Source of the DNA: Octopus vulgaris
Lineage: Eukaryota
Direction: 5' to 3'
Assembly: GCA_951406725.2 (NCBI GenBank)
Contig: OX597816.1
Coordinates: 117,986,001-118,050,000, forward strand
DNA: 64,000 nucleotides
The notes below the pieces were generated by a model, which had not been told where the DNA came from, did no database searches, and was given only the letters and a program-made list of their open reading frames with translations. Every line of letters begins with the position of its first letter. Position 1 is the stretch's first letter. Both the position numbers and the translations under genes were made by a program. Shown piece after piece: positions 19,842 through 62,235 of this stretch.

Positions 19842-20229
19842 GTGGAGGCGCAATGGCCCACTGGTTAGGGCAGTGGACTCGCGGTCTTAGGATCGCGGTT
19901 TCGATTCCCAGACCGGGCGTTGTGAGTGTTTATTGAGCGAAAACACCTAAAAGCTCCACGAGGCTCCGGCAGGGGATGGTGGTGATCCCTGCTGTACTCT
20001 TTCACCACAACTTTCTCTCACTCTTACTTCCTGTTTCTGTTGTACCTGTATTTCAAGGGGCCGGCCTTGTCACTCTCTGTGTCACGCTGAATATCCCCGA
20101 GAACTACGTTAAGGGTGCACGTGTCTGTGGAGTGCTCAGCCACTTTACACGTTTATTTCACGAGCAGGCTGTTCCGTTGATTCGGATCAACCGGAACCCT
20201 CATCGTCGTAACCGACGGAGTGCTTCCAC
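19842..20229 (+). mobile_element. Full-length tRNA-derived SINE with 13-bp TSD
   Basis: Head has TGGCCCACTGGTTAGGGC (A box) and GGTTTCGATTCCC (B box). TSD ATAAGTTACTGGC at 19829-19841 and 20230-20242. Confidence 0.9.
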
Positions 20230-22217: not shown

Positions 22218-22336
22218 TCTTATACTAGGATGTTGTTGACAGTGACTTCGAAGTTTCGGCCAGCTAAGCCATCATCCGACGATGGCTTAGATGGCCGAAA
22301 CTTCGACGTTACTGTCAACAGCATTCTTGTGTAAGA
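22218..22336. repeat. 59-bp-arm palindrome made of two head-to-head hammerhead-like motifs
   Basis: Arms 22218-22276 and 22278-22336 differ at about 8 positions. Each reads GAYGA-UGGCUUAG.UGGCC-GAAAC-UUCG-A.GUY. Confidence 0.8.
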
Positions 22337-22428: not shown

Positions 22429-23544
22429 ACCCGACGTTTTTTTTTTAAATTTTGGAATTTATTGCGTTTATAAATTTTGGAATCTAGTTTTTTCGAGAAT
22501 TCTATTTTTGAATCATTTTGGAATCTTTTTTTTTTTTCTAGTTAATTTTAGTTAATTTTTGTTTATTTTCAGATCATTATTTTGTTTATTTTCAGCTACT
22601 CGCGACATTTGTGCTGTGTATGGAGAGGGTGCCATAGCTGAAAGAACCGCTCGTGATTGGTATGTCAAGTTCAAAAATGGAAATTTTGATCTCAAAGATG
22701 CACCTCGTTCTGGCCATCCAGTTGAGTTCGATGAAGAGCGATTAAACAAACTTTTGCACGAAAATTCTCGTCAAACGACAAGGGAACTGGCAAAGAAAAT
22801 GGAATGCTCCCACACTGCTATAGAAAAGCATCTTCACTCGATGGGAAAGGTTCAGAAGTATGGAGCATGAGTTCCGCATGTTTTAAGTGACAACAGCAAA
22901 ATTCAACGCGTCACAATTTCCGCTGGTTTGCTTGCTCGCCACCGCTCAACTCATGGACACAAGCAACAATTTCTTTACCGAATCGTTACTAGCGACAAAA
23001 AATGGTGCCTGTGCATCAATATGAAGCAGCGTAAGGAAACAACCGATAACGCGTGTGAAACAAGATCATCCACGTAAAACGATGTTGTGCGTATGGTGGG
23101 ACTGGGAAGGGATTATTCATTACGAATTGCTTGGACGGAACCAAACGTCAACGTTCAACAGATGGAACAACTCAGCACGGCTATTCAAAAGAAAAGACCT
23201 AATCGGCAGCATGGAGTTCTTCTGCTGCACGACAACGCCCACCCTCATATCTCCAATGTGACCGAGGAAGCCATTTAAACGCATGACTGAGAAGTGCTGC
23301 CACACTCGCCGTACTCTCCTGATTTGGCACCAACGGATTTTCACCTCTTTCGATCTCTTTCAAAGGCTATGCGCGGAGTTTCGTTCAGTACTGATGCAGA
23401 ATTGGGTGATTTCTACCAACGAGATATTGAAAATCTTGTTGAACGTTGGGAAGAAGTTGTAAACAACAAGGGTGAATAGATTATTGATTAATTAGTTATT
23501 TTTTATTAAACCTTTTAAAAAACGGCGGGAACTTATTTGCCAAC

Positions 23545-23548: not shown

Positions 23549-23618
<70 letters not shown>

Positions 23619-23775
23619 TGTGATTTTTTATGTGAAGTCGTGTGTTGAAGCAGATATTGTTGTATTTAGGAATGGTCATTTTGCCAGTTTAGCCAATAAA
23701 AACACAAGCACTATATATTTGGTGTTACTTTGCTTCAGTGTTATTTATTTTTTACATTAATCTTAATCTTATTTC

Positions 23776-23820
23776 GGCCAGAGTTCTTTCGTCACACTCC
23801 TGTGACCGCATCAGTGGTCC
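23776..23820 (-). ncRNA. Variant hammerhead-like motif in the left (inverted) pseudo-LTR
   Basis: Exact reverse complement of 25578-25622. Confidence 0.65.
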
Positions 23821-24178
23821 TTTGTTTTCTTCTTACTTATTTGTGTCTCTCCTTACTAACCATCTGCCATTTTGTATTTATTTCTATTGTATGTCTTCAT
23901 TTGCGCATGCTTATATCTCTATGTGCGTTTATGTTTATTTAGTGTGTGTATGTGGGGGATGCCTGTAATATTTGTATCTTCTGTTTATATATGTTCATGT
24001 AATTTGTATTTTGCATTTTGTTTTTTGTTTTTTGTTTTTGTTGTTTTTGTTTATTCTTATTTTGTTCATGTGTTTACATCCACCCATTATTATCATTACA
24101 TATGCTTGTATGTATGTATGTATGTATGTATGTATGTATAACAACAATACTAGTAATAATAATAATAAATTGAATCGA

Positions 24179-24258
<80 letters not shown>

Positions 24259-24294
24259 CATATGCTTGTATGTATGTATAACAACAATACTAGT

Positions 24295-24933
24295 ATTTGC
24301 CCACTCTATAGGAACAAGTCATGGAACACTATAGAAAGGACAAAAAAGAAAATAGGGAAGGCCAACTCTTGGTATGATAGCCATAAATACCAGAGTGTCA
24401 TGTTCGTTGACACCACCCCTGGAGGTGAACTGGCGTATCGCTTTAGAAGGACCCTAGACAAACTTAAGCTAAGAATTAAGGTTGTTGAAAAGCCAGGCAA
24501 CCCTATCAAATCTATAATTGGTAGAACCTATCCTTTTAGTAGAACCCCCTGTACGGATAAGTACTGTACTGTATGTAGATTTAGCCCACAAACAAACTAT
24601 AAAGCCAGAAATGTAGTCTATAGTATAAGATGTATAGAGGAACGATGCAGTAACAAGACAACGACATACGTAAGGGAAACGGCAAGAAGCATAGGAGAGC
24701 GGGTAAATGAGCATTGGAGACAACTCAAGGAAGGTAAAAGCTCATCGATTCTGTACCAACACGCCGTACAAGAACACGGGGGATCAATCAATAACATAGA
24801 AATTAAAATATTATCCACACATAGATCAGATGCAACAATTAGACAAATAACAGAAGCTACACACATAATAGAAAATAAACCTAGCCTGAATAGAAAACTA
24901 GAATGGAGCACTAAAACACACCACAACATATGA
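24295..24933 (+). CDS. Penelope-like element C-terminal GIY-YIG endonuclease (truncated ORF, RT missing)
   Basis: Cys-rich linker CTDKYCTVC, then NVVYSIRC..C..TYVRETARSIGERVNEH...H...H...RQITEA..I...PSLN. The ORF is uninterrupted to its stop codon. Confidence 0.85.
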   Translation: MCPLYRNKSWNTIERTKKKIGKANSWYDSHKYQSVMFVDTTPGGELAYRFRRTLDKLKLRIKVVEKPGNPIKSIIGRTYPFSRTPCTDKYCTVCRFSPQTNYKARNVVYSIRCIEERCSNKTTTYVRETARSIGERVNEHWRQLKEGKSSSILYQHAVQEHGGSINNIEIKILSTHRSDATIRQITEATHIIENKPSLNRKLEWSTKTHHNI

Positions 24934-25033
24934 CGATAGAGGATCCTGAAAACATAATAAATACATAGATAAATAAATAAACTAATAGAATTAAATAACT
25001 ATATATATATATATGTATATGTATATGTATATG

Positions 25034-25067
<34 letters not shown>

Positions 25068-25153
25068 TATTCGATTCAATTTATTATTATTATTATTATT
25101 ACTAGTATTGTTGTTATACATACATACATACAAGCATATGTATATGTATATGT

Positions 25154-25229
<76 letters not shown>

Positions 25230-25577
25230 GATTCAATTTATTATTATTATTATTACTAGCATTGTTGTTATACATACATACATACATACATACAAGCATA
25301 TGTAATGATAATAATGGGTGGATGTAAACACATGAACAAAATAAGAATAAACAAAAACAACAAAAACAAAAATCAAAAAACAAAATGCAAAATACAAATT
25401 ACATGAACATATATAAACAGAAGATACAAATATTACAGGCATCACCCCACATACACACACTAAATAAACATAAACGCACATAGAGATATAAGCATGCGCA
25501 AATGAAGACATACAATAGAAATACAAAATGGCTGACGGTTAGTAAGGAGAGACACAAATAAGTGAGAAGAAAACAAA

Positions 25578-25622
25578 GGACCACTGATGCGGTCACAGGA
25601 GTGTGACGAAAGAACTCTGGCC
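25578..25622 (+). ncRNA. Variant hammerhead-like motif in the right pseudo-LTR
   Basis: CCA-CUGAUGCG-GUCACA-GGAG-UGUGAC-GAAA-GAAC-UC-UGG. Stems I, II and III are all present, but the core has CG in place of A9. Confidence 0.65.
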
Positions 25623-25734
25623 GAAATAAGATTAAGATTAATGTAAAAAATAAATAACACTGAAGCAAAGTAACACCAAATATATAGTGCGTGTGTTTTT
25701 ATTGGCTAAACTGGCAAAATGACCATTCCTAAAT

Positions 25735-25799
<65 letters not shown>

Positions 25800-26511: not shown

Positions 26512-26769
26512 TTTTTTTCGCCCTTTTCAAGCCTAGCCAGGCTCATGGACCCAGTTTCCCGGTTTCTGTGGCGTATGTGTTCCCCCCAGCTGGACGGGAC
26601 GCCAGTCCATCGCAGCGTTACTCAAGAAACAAGAAGAGAGAGTGCCGGAGCATCGTGGAGCATCGTGTTTTCGCTCAATAAACACATACAACGCCCGGTC
26701 TGGAAATCGAAACCGCGATCCTCCGACAGCGAGTCCGCTGCCCTAACCACTGGGCCATTGCGCCTCCAC
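26512..26769 (-). mobile_element. tRNA-derived SINE with TSD ACAAAGTCTTT
   Basis: Same head as the SINE at 19842. TSD at 26501-26511 and 26770-26780. Confidence 0.85.
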
Positions 26770-29143: not shown

Positions 29144-29204
<61 letters not shown>

Positions 29205-29213
29205 GTATATGTA

Positions 29214-29285
<72 letters not shown>

Positions 29286-29288
<3 letters not shown>

Positions 29289-30914
29289 TTGCGGCCAAAA
29301 TGTTCAGAACGGCATTGTTTTCGTCAGAAAGGTAGATATAATTTTTTATCAAAGTTGTTTTATATTCTATAATTTTCACAGACAATAAATACAATATTAT
29401 TTGTTATTGCCTGAGATTTGGGAGTAATTTGAGAGGATAATACAAAAGTTATGAATGATTTAGTGATTTACTGCAAAACTCATGGCGGCCAAAATGATCA
29501 GAATGGTTGCTTTTACTCCGTGTTTTAGTATATTTAACCGGCGAACTCTAATGTTTTGAATTTGTTTACGTGACGGTTCGTTTACTAAACATTAGTAAGA
29601 ATATTTGCAGTGTACTTTGTTAATATAATGCCACTTACTCCGTTACCAATTCGTCAGCAGATTATTAAGCTTCGAAGGAAGGATATTTTTAGTATTGGAT
29701 CTATTGCAAAGATTGTTAACAAGTCAAAAAGTGTTGTACACGGTATTCTTAAGGTCTACGATGATTGTGGTTCGTGTGAAGCAAGAAAGTTTACAGGTAG
29801 GCCAAGAAAAACGACCAAGAGAGAAGATCGTGCTATGGTAAAGTTGGTTAAAAAAGACAGATTTAAAACTGCTGCTGCTGTTTCTCGGAAAATGAGCATT
29901 GTATTGAAGAAAACTTTATCTCGAAAAACTGTGTATCGTCGTTTAGTTGAACATGACCTACAAGCAAGAGCACCTGCAGTGAAGCCACTGATCAGCTCCA
30001 AAAATAAAAAGTGTCGTCTTACCTTTGCAACCGAAAATGTGTTGTGGTCTCAAGAAAAATGGCAAACGGTGCATTTCCGTGATGAATCTAAGTTTATGTT
30101 ATTTGGCTCAGATGGGAAAAGGTACGTTCGTAGAAAAGTAGGTGAAAAATTGTCGCCTAAATGCCTTAAGACTAGTGTTAAATTCGGTGGAAGAAGTGTC
30201 ATGGTTTGGGGTATGATATCTGGAGACGGTGTGGGCCCTTTGATGCAATTACATGGAAAGGTAAATGCAGGAGTTTATAAACAACTAGTAAAAGATTATG
30301 TCTTGACTGTGCTGAGAAATTCAACTAAGCGACCACCCATATTCATGCAGGACAATGCCCCATGTCACAAGGCTAAGGTGGTCATGAACTTCCTCAAGGC
30401 TGAAAAGGTTATTGTTATGGATTGGCCTGCTCAAAGCCCAGATCTCAATCCTATTGAAAATGTATGGAATATTCTAGGAGAACGTTCGAAAGCCAGAAAT
30501 CCTAAAACAACTGAGCAATTATGGAATGCCCTTCAGGAAGAATGGAATAAGATCACCCAGCAAGAAATTGAAAATTTAATTTCCTCATGCAGTCGAAGAT
30601 GTCAGAGTGTGATTGAAGCTAAAGGGCTTCACACTAAATATTAAATAATTTCAGTATTCTCTGTCATTTTTTATTATTTTGTTATTTTTTCAACCGTTCT
30701 GATCATTTTGGCCGCCATGGGTTTTGCAGTAAATCACTAAATCATCCATATAACTTTTGTATTATCCTCTCAAATTACACCAAAATCTCTGACAATAACA
30801 ATTAATATTATATTTATTGTCTGTGAAAATTATAGAATATAAAACTATTTTGATAAAAACTTATACTTACTTTTCTGACGAAAACAATGCCGTTCTGAAC
30901 ATTTTGGCCGCAAT

Positions 30915-30916
<2 letters not shown>
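29286..30916 (+). mobile_element. Full-length Tc1-family transposon with IR/DR-type TIRs (about 225 bp), inserted in (TA)n
   Basis: TIRs at 29286-29509 and 30691-30916, each with two copies of GCGGCCAAAATG(T/A)TCAGAA. Left flank is TA; right flank is TG. Confidence 0.95.
29628..30644 (+). CDS. Tc1 DD34E transposase, uninterrupted ORF (338 aa from the ATG at 29628)
   Basis: Paired-like HTH, GRPRKTT, FRDES, QDNAPCH and SPDLNPIE. Exactly 34 residues separate the second D and the E. Confidence 0.95.
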   Translation: MPLTPLPIRQQIIKLRRKDIFSIGSIAKIVNKSKSVVHGILKVYDDCGSCEARKFTGRPRKTTKREDRAMVKLVKKDRFKTAAAVSRKMSIVLKKTLSRKTVYRRLVEHDLQARAPAVKPLISSKNKKCRLTFATENVLWSQEKWQTVHFRDESKFMLFGSDGKRYVRRKVGEKLSPKCLKTSVKFGGRSVMVWGMISGDGVGPLMQLHGKVNAGVYKQLVKDYVLTVLRNSTKRPPIFMQDNAPCHKAKVVMNFLKAEKVIVMDWPAQSPDLNPIENVWNILGERSKARNPKTTEQLWNALQEEWNKITQQEIENLISSCSRRCQSVIEAKGLHTKY

Positions 30917-31005
<89 letters not shown>

Positions 31006-31039
31006 ATATATATACATAGATAGATAGATAGATATGCTG

Positions 31040-33859: not shown

Positions 33860-36080
33860 TTGTCATCATTCTCACCAAACTAGTTTTGGTGCTTACGCTC
33901 GATTTTCCCTAAAACTTCAAGTAAGGATGCATAGACAATGTCGCAGAATTTCATCCATTTGTTCTCGATTGGAAGAACTGAGTCGCTCATTGTCTCTAAT
34001 GAGCAGGTTAGTCTGCTTATTTTAGATCTGAGTTTGTTGAGATTCAGAGTAGATTTCGTTGCTTTTCTCTGAGGTCGTCTGTTCTTCATTATTTCGAGTT
34101 TGCACTTGGCTATCAATAGGCGGTGGCTGGTCCAGCAGTCAACACCAAATATAGACTTAACTACACATAAGTCACACCGATCTTTCTGATGATAAGTGGT
34201 GTAGTCAATCAAGTGCCAGTATGCAGAACGGGGGTACATTTAAGAGATGCGGTTCCAAAAAGGAAGTTTAAAGGTGTTTTTTGTCAGGAGTAACTAAATC
34301 ACAGTGCAGAACTGGAGCAGAAGTTCACCGTTGGAATTTCATTTGCCGGCTCCGTTGGTTCTTAATACATCCCACTATGTCCAGTGGTCAATTTCGACCC
34401 TGATATTGAAGTAGCCCATCAATTTGAGTTTTTCTTTTCGAGGGATGGTGGAAATGAGGGATGACAAATCTTCGTAGAACTTCTCTTTGGATGCTTAATA
34501 AACAAATGCGCCCTTTTTAAAGCCTAGCCAGGCTCATGGGCCCGGTTTCTATGGCGTATGTGTTCCCCAGCTGGACGGGGCGCCAATCCATCGCAGCGTT
34601 ACTCATTTTTGCCAGCTGAGTGGACTGGAACAACGTAAAATGAAGTGTTTTGCTCAAGAACACAACGCGTCGCCCGGTCCAGGAATCGAAACCACAATCT
34701 TACGATCTAACACCCTAACCACTAAGCCACACTCCTCCACCTTTGGATGCTTAGTCATTGATTAATGCGAGGTCATACAGAAGCTTACAAGGTTGAAAAA
34801 ATTGTTTCCTTTCGTTAGTAGTCTTATAATCATAAACTGATCATTATAGGTTTTTGGAAGATTGGTAAGAATTTTTTGCTAGGTTTTCCACTGCAAAAGC
34901 TACACCAACTTCGCGTTTGTCGTCATCCTTATTCTGCGCTGGTCTGTAGAATGAGCAGTCTATTCCATATTTCTTGAATTGTCTAGTTTCTGATAGTCTT
35001 GTTTCGCTGAGAACAGTTGTGTCAGTGTTATACCTTGATAATTCTCAACAACAACTGATCTCTTTGCAGACCTATTTGCATTGATGTTTTCAAGCGAAGT
35101 GCGTACATTCCATGCACCTAGCTTCAGTGACATTCGTTCTGCCCTAATATTTCGACTGCCATTTTGGGATCACGTCAACCGCGGTCTGCTAAACTGGAAG
35201 GAATGAATCAGTAATTTTCAGAGTCATTTATTTTGACCCTTTCATCGTTCTAGCGAGATGGGCAGTGTGTTCCAGAATAGGGCCACTCAGACACTCAGGG
35301 GTTCGCCAGAGCTCAGCACTGCTTCCTTTGTCAATGACCACTTACTTTAAGCTATCTAGTGCATGAGTTTGTGGATGACGGCTCTCCACTATCCAGACCC
35401 ACTGTCATTGTCACAGGACTTCCAAATGTATAAAACTACACTGATTTCCGCGAGATTTTTAAGGTAAAGTAAAACTGCACAGATACTATCCCCGCTCTTC
35501 TCTCTTACACTTCTGTTATCCAATGGCAAGACAAAATTAACACACCAATGAAGACACATACACAAGAGCTACCAGAATGAGACAACCATCCTGCCAACAG
35601 TAGGGATTCAGCTAATGATTTTTTTGTGTATTGACTCCTTTAACCTATGCTTAAATGAGCATAATGTACAAGGCAGCAGATGGATTTGCTTGTCTCTGAA
35701 GCTTTTTAAAATTAGGAAGCCCCTTGCACAGGGCCAACCCCATTCTCTAGACAACATATGCGTTTGCTTATTAAGTAGAACTGGTCTACATCATTAACTG
35801 AAAAGGATGTTGCAAGAGTTACATCAGAGTTTTCCTTCTCATAGAGAGATATCTCAACAAAAGCTAGGAGTCTCTTACTCTCAGATGTCGGATGGCCGTT
35901 GACTCAACAGAGTTCATCCACCTTTGACAGGTTCTGTTTTTCGTCCTGCAGCGTGTCCAACGAAAAACGTCCACGCTCCTTACCAAGCAGGCTTGTGAAA
36001 GTTGCCGGCTCAGTCGCTGACGGCCAGACCATGTGACAGGTTGTACGGGGTTGCCTGTTACCAGTAGCATTAGATATTAC
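33860..36080 (-). mobile_element. RTE/BovB-like LINE 5' portion (5' UTR plus AP endonuclease), decayed
   Basis: LKLGAWNVRT, VLSETRL, REVGVAFA, MYPRSAYWHLIDY and DCWTSHRLL. The 5' UTR contains the RTE-typical GAGAAGGAAAACTCTGA. Confidence 0.8.
34498..34740 (-). mobile_element. tRNA-derived SINE inserted in the RTE, with 13-bp TSD
   Basis: TSD CTTTGGATGCTTA at 34485-34497 and 34741-34753. Related to the SINE at 26512. Confidence 0.85.
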
Positions 36081-60994: not shown

Positions 60995-62235
60995 ATCATC
61001 ATCATTTAGCGTCTGCTTTCCATGCTGGCATGGGTTAGGTGGTTTGATTGGAGCTGGTAAGCCTGAGAGTTGCACCAAGTTCGTCTGATTTAACATGGTT
61101 TCTGCAGCTGGATGCCCTTTCTAATGCTAACCACTCCAAGAGTATAATGGGTGCTTTTATGTGCCAATTACGTGACACCAGCATCAGCCATTACTGTGAT
61201 TTCACTTGGTTTGACAAGTCTTTTCAGGCACGGCATATCAGCATAGGTCTCTGTCACTTGTCATTGCCTCCGTGAGGCCCAATGTTCATAGATCATGCTT
61301 CACCACCTCATCCTGTATCTACCTGGGCCTACCTCTTCCAGAGGTTCCCTCCACAGTTAGAGATCGGCACTTCTCCATACAGCTATCCTTGTCCATATGC
61401 ATCACATGACTATACCAGTGCAGTCATCTCCTTTGCACACCGAATCTGATGCCTCTTATGCCCAATTTTTCTCTCAAGATGCTTACACTCTGTCATACAT
61501 GCACACTGACACTGCACATCCAGTGAAGTGTACCAGCTTCATTTCTTTCGAGCCTACACTTGTCATCAGCAGTCACAGCCCATGTTTCACTACCATGTAG
61601 CATGGCTGTTTGCACACAGGCATCATACAACCTGCCTTTGCCTTTCACTCTGAGGGAGAATCCCATAATTACCAACAAAGGTAGAAGCTCTCTGAACTTT
61701 ATTTGGCTTCTTATTCTAGCAGCTATGCTCTCAGAGCATCTACTCCTGCTGCTAACTTGGTTACCTAGATAATGGATTCTATCAACTACTTCTAGGTATC
61801 CTTGCTGGCATTTGATGGAGTCTATCTTACTTACATTTCTAGTGTTTCTATAGCTGTACACCTGCCTCACACAGACTATTTTTCCTGTTAACCTTCCTCT
61901 GATATTGCTGCACCTCTTATGTGACCATAGCTTGCACTGGGTACATCTTATGGAGTTTCTACCTATGTCTTTTCTACATATTGAGCAGGGCCATCTACCT
62001 GAAGGGATTTGTGATTTGTCCTTTTTCCTACTTAAGACTTTGATTCTAGACGTTGCTTCCACTCCTGAAATTTCTTCTCTAGTTCTGGTAATGATTCTGG
62101 TAGCTATAAGAACAAGTTCATCAGCATAGAGGAGCTCCTAGGGGCAGCCTGACTTAAATTCATCCGTTATTGCCTGAAGGACTACGATGAGCAAGAGGGG
62201 GCTGAGGATTGATCCTTGGTGAACCCCTACTTGGA
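60995..62235 (-). mobile_element. RTE-like LINE 3' half
   Basis: VGVHQGSILSPLL, ELLYADELV, WPCSICRK.IGRNSIRCTQCKLWSHKRC and GRLYDACVQTAMLHGSETW. Confidence 0.88.

What the first reader, a model, noticed from the sequence alone, without database searches (positions are those of the whole stretch)
25578..25622. Hammerhead core variant CUGAUGCG (A9 replaced by CG) in the Penelope pseudo-LTR
Seen: a perfect 6-bp stem II (GUCACA/UGUGAC), stem I CCA/UGG extendable by GG/CC, a tiny stem III (AG-AA-CU), a CUC triplet and an intact GAAA. The near-invariant A9 is absent and there is one extra nucleotide; both pseudo-LTR copies are identical. Known: A9 normally forms a sheared pair with G12, and a single extra residue after A9 is tolerated in some natural hammerheads. 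Inference: a natural core variant that standard searches would miss. An alternative pairing (GGUCA/UGGCC followed by a second GAAA) could act as a conformational switch. Caveat: both copies may derive from one mutated template.
Basis: partly seen in the sequence, partly recalled or inferred. Interest (0 to 1): 0.7.

Follow-up and report, generated by a model that had tools for sequence, protein, structure and literature searches.

The report
Hammerhead lacking A9 in Penelope retroelement
A jumping-gene family with thousands of copies in this animal genome carries a small self-cutting-RNA (hammerhead) motif in which one normally fixed core letter changed from A to C in the parent element; the change likely weakens cutting, yet the family went on multiplying, and cutting itself is untested.

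Summary
The motif is real and lies in the pseudo-LTR of a Penelope-like element (RT plus GIY-YIG). It is not copy decay: 2,933 of 3,347 exact genome-wide matches read CUGAUGCG. It is also not "A9 replaced by CG". It is one A9>C substitution on top of the extra nucleotide that these minimal hammerheads normally carry. Older subfamilies read CUGAUGAG (22 of 22 oldest copies holding the core), and divergence gives the order A9 (7.3%, 2.7%), then C9 (1.1%), then C9 with U17 (0.14%). C9 likely weakens cleavage: it removes the G12·A9 sheared pair and strengthens a competing fold. That fold is weak in both ancestor and descendant and cannot complete a ribozyme, so a switch is not supported. Truncated copies show no clear peak at the cut site. 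The motif was conserved over the family's history (p=0.0009 against fourfold sites); after A9>C the test is inconclusive (p=0.11). Ten literature searches found no natural A9C hammerhead, but key papers were unavailable. The scan noted other core variants in Penelope elements on other DNA, not this one. Verdict: a new variant of a known kind, activity untested.

The parts
25578..25622 (+). Minimal type-I hammerhead motif of the pseudo-LTR (C9 variant)
25584..25590 (+). Core C3 U4 G5 A6 U7 G8 and position 9; 25590 is C instead of A
   Evidence: A in sister subfamilies
25591..25591 (+). Extra nucleotide between 9 and 10.1 (G); present before A9>C
   Evidence: G in 19 of 22 oldest copies that hold the core; a general feature of PLE min-HHRs
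25592..25607 (+). Stem II (6 bp, G10.1-C11.1) with GGAG loop (GAAG in the oldest subfamily)
25608..25617 (+). G12 A13 A14 A15.1, two-pair non-palindromic helix III, U16.1, C17; predicted cut after 25617; U at 25617 in the youngest subfamily
25618..25626 (+). 3' strand of stem I (UGG, CC) and second GAAA; also the 3' arm of the competing helix CGGUCA/UGGCCG
23776..23820 (-). Identical motif in the inverted copy
23616..24262 (-). Inverted, truncated pseudo-LTR copy; its 38-nt extension (23616-23653) is absent from the plus copy and fits the PLE 'tail'
   Evidence: tail described in Craig 2021
24294..24933 (+). 3' end of the PLE ORF: Cys linker (C-x4-C-x2-C) and GIY-YIG-type endonuclease; 5'-truncated, no RT, and the G of the second motif reads R, so a dead copy
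   Evidence: motif names recalled and; Pfam gave no GIY-YIG hit
24934..25745 (+). 3' UTR with microsatellites and pseudo-LTR, ending in (AT)n

Best explanation
This is the standard minimal hammerhead of a Penelope-like retrotransposon in which a single A9>C change arose in the parent element and was copied thousands of times; the change likely leaves a weakened or nearly silent ribozyme, which the element appears able to afford. Shown: the substitution, its spread, its derived state, the order A9 then C9 then C9+U17, and long open RT-endonuclease frames beside C9 motifs. Inferred: C cannot give the Hoogsteen contacts of the sheared G12·A9 pair next to the general base, and it adds a C-G pair to a competing helix that breaks stems I and II. 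Inferred: cleavage is slow or not rate-limiting for retrotransposition, so the change drifted or hitch-hiked with a successful parent copy.
For: CG is 2,933 of 3,347 exact matches; A9 with either loop gives 444; C9+U17 gives 1,356. Control: the pattern dominated by another min-HHR family in the same genome gives 6,137 A9 against 160 non-A9 matches. Divergence to group majority: oldest family 7.25% (A9 in 22 of 22 holding the core, of 30 loci), A9 subfamily 2.73% (28), C9/C17 1.14% (13), C9/U17 0.14% (14). Private changes are higher in A9 than in C9 copies, p=4e-5. Frames of 604-654 aa lie beside C9 motifs in L062, L065 and L067 (RVT_1 E=1e-3, below cutoff). A9 and G12 form a sheared pair with three hydrogen bonds (PMC2553840). 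The competing helix has probability 0.01-0.68 with C9 against 0.00-0.06 with A9 over 24 windows. Ribozyme mutants of an anole PLE still insert in vitro and no reads end at its cut (PMC11167929). Naiads multiply without a detected canonical hammerhead. No clear cut-site peak appears among 83 truncated copies.
Against: No measured rate for A9C was found in any paper I could read; the effect is inferred from structure. Since A9>C the motif has changed at only 1 of 45 places, and to U17, an allowed state, against 12 of 117 fourfold sites (p=0.11). That leans towards continued constraint. Five of 83 truncations start exactly at 25618 (p=0.038 for one pre-chosen place), all five of C9-era type at 25659. 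The anole motif cleaves only with its protein, so folding predictions on naked RNA may mislead. The ancestor may already have been weak: helix III is not palindromic, and an extra G was detrimental in a viroid hammerhead.
Confidence: 0.55

Rival explanations
1. A tolerated, still functional core: the C9 motif cleaves well enough in vivo, helped by dimer formation or by the element's protein, possibly with the extra G taking A9's place against G12 and the C bulged out. The later C17U would then be a compensating change that removes the competing fold.
For: The motif is conserved over the family's history (2 of 45 against 31 of 113 fourfold sites, p=0.0009) and changed only once after A9>C. U17 is common among published min-HHRs and lowers the competing helix to 0.00-0.15. 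Slow natural core variants exist (A6C and others, PMC3088659). A PLE hammerhead is protein-assisted. Five truncations start at the cut.
Against: The pseudo-LTR flanks are as conserved as the motif in the C9 era (12 of 387 against 1 of 45, p=1.0), so the constraint is not specific to it. All 56 representative min-HHRs in Cervera's Fig. S3 keep A9, though their descriptor required it. The cut-site count is not above neighbouring places (6 at 25587, 6 at 25622, 7 at 25627). The G-for-A9 geometry is my speculation.
Confidence: 0.3
2. The sequence is kept mainly for a role other than cleavage (promoter, 5' UTR or protein-binding hairpin of the pseudo-LTR), and even the A9 ancestor barely cut.
For: The motif is not significantly more conserved than its flanks in any pairwise comparison (p 0.09-1.0). 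Helix III is non-palindromic and the self-duplex is weak (-3.6 kcal/mol). The extra G deviates from the H consensus. The motif lies shortly upstream of the ORF's first ATG in L062.
Against: All catalytic boxes and stems were intact in the two older subfamilies. Pooled over four groups the motif varies less than its flanks (3 of 45 against 31 of 162, p=0.066; the flank count includes indel columns).
Confidence: 0.08
3. A regulated two-state switch between the hammerhead fold and the GGUCA/UGGCC helix followed by the second GAAA.
For: With C9/C17 the two folds are nearly isoenergetic in some windows (-12.4 against -12.2 kcal/mol; probability 0.49).
Against: The balance exists only in the middle evolutionary stage (A9 0.03, C9+U17 0.07 in the same window) and ranges from 0.01 to 0.68 with the flanks. 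The second register uses up the 3' strand of stem I, and no UH followed by UGG lies downstream to complete a ribozyme. No trigger is known.
Confidence: 0.06
4. Copy-specific decay of this one insertion.
For: The two window copies come from one insertion, and the copy is dead.
Against: 2,933 exact C9 matches across the genome. C is the majority letter in contigs of four coded organisms.
Confidence: 0.01

Closest known systems
Minimal hammerheads (min-HHR) of metazoan Penelope-like elements (Cervera and de la Pena 2014, PMC4209133)
   Same: Type-I layout in the pseudo-LTR, short stem I, long stem II, extra nucleotide between 9 and 10.1, G10.1-C11.1, vestigial helix III, inverted pairs, many truncated copies.
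   Different: C at position 9 instead of A; the extra nucleotide is G (consensus H; G in the Nasonia example); helix III is not palindromic.
Poseidon hammerhead of Anolis carolinensis (Frangieh 2024, PMC11167929)
   Same: PLE pseudo-LTR ribozyme near the ORF start, upstream of the tail; no clear end at the predicted cut in genomic or RNA data.
   Different: A different clade; its cleavage was shown (with protein) and C3/G8 were tested there; nothing is tested here.
Natural core variants of Perreault 2011 (PMC3088659): U3-A8, A6C, A6a, U13a, U15.1-A16.1
   Same: A natural change at an otherwise fixed core position, expected to slow cleavage.
   Different: The text I read names no position-9 change (Fig. 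5 and Figs S6-S7 not seen); those are single examples, whereas this one can be dated against ancestral sisters in thousands of copies.
CChMVd (+) hammerhead with extra A10 (via review PMC3705267)
   Same: One extra residue between positions 9 and 10.1.
   Different: It keeps A9; there, G or C at the extra place was strongly detrimental.
Neptune/Nematis-type EN+ PLEs
   Same: RT, then a Cys linker of the CX2-5CxxC kind, then a C-terminal GIY-YIG; insertions at microsatellites.
   Different: The clade was not tested with a tree.

Membership tests
Hammerhead ribozyme (core consensus) | C3 U4 G5 A6 N7 G8 and G12 A13 A14 A15.1 | tested here: met
Hammerhead ribozyme (core consensus) | A9 | tested here: not met
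   C at 25590; A in the ancestral subfamilies
Hammerhead ribozyme (core consensus) | U16.1 and H17 (NUH) | tested here: met
   CUC in the window, CUU in the youngest subfamily; rule from PMC3884650
Hammerhead ribozyme (core consensus) | Three helices around the core | tested here: inconclusive
   Stems I and II are predicted; helix III has only two pairs; there is no covariation because the stems do not vary between subfamilies
Hammerhead ribozyme (core consensus) | Site-specific self-cleavage | not testable with these tools
   Only contigs were available; the truncation footprint is unclear
Rfam hammerhead models | Covariance-model match | tested here: not met
   No hammerhead hit up to E=10 for the C9 form or for an A9 sister
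PLE min-HHR (Cervera 2014) | Lies in the pseudo-LTR of a PLE, sense strand | tested here: met
PLE min-HHR (Cervera 2014) | Extra nucleotide between 9 and 10.1; G10.1-C11.1; long stem II | tested here: met
   the extra letter is G, not the consensus H
PLE min-HHR (Cervera 2014) | Palindromic helix III/loop 3 | tested here: not met
   AGAACU: outer pairs complementary, central AA not; duplex -3.6 kcal/mol
EN+ Penelope-like element | One ORF with RT followed by GIY-YIG | tested here: met
   Long copies L062, L065, L067; RVT_1 weak; GIY-YIG read by eye, no Pfam hit
EN+ Penelope-like element | Inverted truncated copy and a 30-40 bp tail on one end | tested here: met
   description
Neptune or Nematis clade | RT phylogeny | not tested
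   Only the Cys linker was seen

The most novel reading that the evidence does not exclude
The first natural hammerhead that cleaves without A9: the extra G slides into A9's place against G12 (or the element's protein holds the fold), and a later C17U change was selected because it removes the misfold that C9 created, giving a dated three-step natural experiment in ribozyme epistasis inside one retrotransposon family.
Probability: 0.22. Interest if true: 0.62.

Novelty: new variant of a known kind. Interest (0 to 1): 0.38.

Why it matters
What the hammerhead does for Penelope-like elements is an open question (PMC4209133, PMC11167929). This family offers three natural, age-ordered versions of one motif (A9, C9, C9+U17) that differ by single letters, and each amplified to hundreds or thousands of copies. 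If C9 does not cut while A9 does, a PLE lineage multiplied about 3,000-fold without cleavage, which would be in-vivo support for the in-vitro result that cleavage is dispensable. If C9 cuts, the hammerhead core consensus and the search descriptors need loosening at position 9. Either result comes from a simple assay. Without it the finding is a modest variant of a well-known motif.

Tried and rejected
Rfam, window 20-35 kb and the motif alone: no hammerhead hit, and none for an A9 sister. Cut-site footprint: 100 of 387 matches examined, 17 dropped as internal indels, 83 truncations kept; 5 start at 25618, and 8 at 25617-19 against 5.5 expected (p=0.19), with equal or larger counts at three other places. 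A direct genome-wide pattern for junctions at 25618 gave 8 matches; 5 are preceded by GGAA, which with TGG repeats the reverse strand of the element's own tail (microhomology). A ribozyme on the second GAAA: no downstream UH+UGG (its one hit came from a too-loose pattern). A possible helix III partner at 25698-25702 leaves a mismatch at the first stem I pair and is changed in many oldest-family copies (read by eye). A direct C9-G12 Watson-Crick pair has predicted probability of only 0.04, so it is not the main effect. Expression: no RNA holder listed; runs only guessed to be RNA, all contigs, so no ends or levels. Per-mutant data of the pairwise-mutagenesis study are not in its text or in the one supplement read. 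Lunse 2017 (PLE hammerhead dimers) and two reviews were not held, so a described position-9 variant there cannot be excluded. The similarity-ranked hits were not used for counts or ages because they are biased towards the query.

Full report
Observation. The window holds the motif as described at 25578-25622: stem I CCA/UGG with GG/CC beyond a bulged A, core CUGAUG-C, one further G, a 6-bp stem II closed by G10.1-C11.1, GAAA, a two-pair helix III, CUC, and a second GAAA at 25623-26. An identical motif lies on the minus strand at 23776-23820. A descriptor that leaves position 9 free finds these 2 sites and nothing else in 64 kb, and 0 in each of 20 shuffles. Folding energy is ordinary. Rfam gives no hammerhead hit for this form or for an A9 sister.

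Context. The plus copy is the 3' end of a Penelope-like element: a truncated frame at 24294-24933 with a Cys linker and a GIY-YIG-type endonuclease (read by eye; no Pfam hit), then the pseudo-LTR. The minus copy is the inverted truncated partner and carries a 38-nt extension. That is the arrangement described for PLEs in passages of Craig 2021. The two motifs come from one insertion and lie on opposite strands, so they are neither independent nor able to form a tandem dimer. Longer genomic copies with C9 motifs hold open frames of 604-654 aa with RT and endonuclease (3 of the 7 stretches fetched, L062, L065, L067; RVT_1 E=1e-3, below cutoff).

Family-wide state. With the two letters left free, 3,347 exact matches exist in the genome, and 2,933 read CG. 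A9 with loop GGAG or GAAG gives 444. C9 with U17 gives 1,356. Exact patterns favour young copies, and inverted pairs count twice. In the A9 copies the following G is present, so the change is one substitution. As a control, a pattern dominated by another min-hammerhead family gives 6,137 A9 against 160 non-A9 matches, with 10 and 44 in the reversed controls. In contigs of public runs, C is the majority at 25590 in four coded organisms (A share 19, 16, 13 and 2% of summed depth). In four runs guessed to be RNA the A share is 11, 74, 39 and 10%, the 74% from a fifth organism at low depth. These depths are not copy numbers, and the best holder may be the assembly's own sample.

Direction and order. 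An older sister family, found through loose ends, has A9 in 22 of 22 copies that hold the core (30 of 63 matches fetched, 8 lacking it). Divergence to the group majority over 25575-25730 is 7.25% for it, 2.73% for the A9 subfamily (28 of 30 loci, 2 truncated ones dropped), 1.14% for C9/C17 (13) and 0.14% for C9/U17 (14); 3 of the 30 C loci were dropped as truncated or duplicated. Private changes are higher in A9 than in C9 copies (p=4e-5). A9>C is therefore derived, arose in a parent element, and survived several waves of amplification; C17U came later. Four of the 30 A9 loci (L033, L039, L050, L055) carry C-type flanking letters and may be reversions or recombinants.

Selection. Between the oldest family and the window-type C9 group the motif differs at 2 of 45 places against 31 of 113 fourfold sites (p=0.0009), so it was conserved. 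Within the C9 era it differs at 1 of 45 (C17U) against 12 of 117 fourfold sites (p=0.11) and 12 of 387 flank sites (p=1.0). This leans towards constraint but cannot separate the motif from the pseudo-LTR as a whole. Only 4, 13 and 9 copies of these groups held 300 or more bases of ORF, and overlapping loci may repeat a copy.

Mechanism. A9 makes a sheared pair of three hydrogen bonds with G12 (passage of PMC2553840), and G12 is the general base (passage of PMC11014351). That C cannot replace these contacts is my inference; I found no measured A9C rate. Its probability is 0.49 with C9, 0.03 with A9 and 0.07 with C9+U17 in one window, and 0.01-0.68, 0.00-0.06 and 0.00-0.15 over 24 windows. The fold is thus a by-product of the middle stage, not a conserved switch, and it cannot be a second ribozyme because it consumes stem I and nothing downstream completes it. 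The ancestor was itself off-consensus: G as the extra letter (consensus H; G detrimental in a viroid, passage of review PMC3705267) and a non-palindromic helix III.

Footprint of cleavage. If the RNA template were cut, truncated copies might begin at 25618. Of 387 matches I examined the first 100, dropped 17 internal indels and kept 83. Five begin at 25618 (p=0.038 for one pre-chosen place under a flat model), all five of C9-era type at 25659, but 6, 6 and 7 begin at 25587, 25622 and 25627, and 25617-19 holds 8 against 5.5 expected (p=0.19). A direct pattern gave 8 genome-wide, 5 explained by microhomology with the element's own tail. I read this as no clear footprint. It fits Frangieh 2024, where ribozyme mutants still insert, cleavage needs the protein, and no reads end at the cut (PMC11167929, part 1 of 4 and passages).

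What is known. Minimal hammerheads in PLE pseudo-LTRs, the extra nucleotide and low in-vitro activity are described (PMC4209133, parts 1-2 of 4 and supplement 2 parts 1-2 of 3; supplement 1 not searchable). All 56 representatives listed there keep A9, but the descriptor demanded it. Perreault 2011 (passages and the core-variation section; Fig. 5 and supplements not seen) names no position-9 variant in the text read. Searches, aimed at A9 changes, and 13, 22, 43 and 71, on PLE or variant hammerheads, returned no natural A9C hammerhead in their listings. Roberts 2023 (passages, supplement 2) gives no per-mutant value. PMC6765202, PMC3884650 and bioRxiv 2026.07.22.740005 were seen as passages only, and PMC1636495 gave no passage. 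Lunse 2017 and two reviews were not held; Ruffner 1990 is known to me only as a citation. The claim of novelty is limited by these gaps. Earlier notes of this scan report other fixed core changes in PLE hammerheads (A6C, G3-C8, U3-A8). They are unchecked leads, and none matched this sequence.

Verdict. A real, derived, family-wide A9>C variant of a known kind of retroelement hammerhead. It is most likely weakened and carried along by a successful parent element (0.55), or possibly still functional with help (0.30). Interest 0.38: a clean, cheap natural test of whether PLEs need cleavage, but no new system.

Noticed in passing
window 22233-22321: Near-perfect hairpin made of an inverted pair of another hammerhead-like end (stem II arm, GAAA, palindromic helix III ACUUCGAAGU, GUC on the minus strand), with the 5' core box damaged; probably a remnant of a different PLE family.
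   Followed up: no
window 29167-31035: Tc1/mariner-type transposon with 286-nt inverted ends (90%) and a 351-aa open frame (HTH_Tnp_Tc3_2, DDE_3).
   Followed up: partly
window 22480-23540: Decayed mariner-like transposase sequence just left of the PLE insertion (read by eye).
   Followed up: no
window 25500-25740 in coded runs X2 and X5: Contigs with clustered A>G and T>C changes (up to 24 in 192 bases; 25701 A>G about 35% of depth), the pattern expected from A-to-I hyper-editing of double-stranded RNA formed by inverted pseudo-LTR pairs; no matched DNA run, so unproven.
   Followed up: no
G000, pattern: A second, larger min-hammerhead family (core CUGAUGAA, GAAACGUU; 6,137 matches) with a canonical A9.
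   Followed up: partly
L061 (G000:C1:18432000-18439000): Two direct C9+U17 pseudo-LTR copies 3.5 kb apart, each followed by unrelated sequence rather than the PLE ORF: a local duplication or a captured segment.
   Followed up: no
window 26521-26769, 34512-34605 and 19842-19946: Dispersed SINE-like repeat copies.
   Followed up: no
window 61493-62137 (-): 213-aa frame with a weak PHD-finger match (E=8e-5, below cutoff), possibly the first ORF of a LINE.
   Followed up: no
window 25603-25607: None of 83 truncated copies begins in the 3' strand of stem II; may reflect structure or low microhomology.
   Followed up: no
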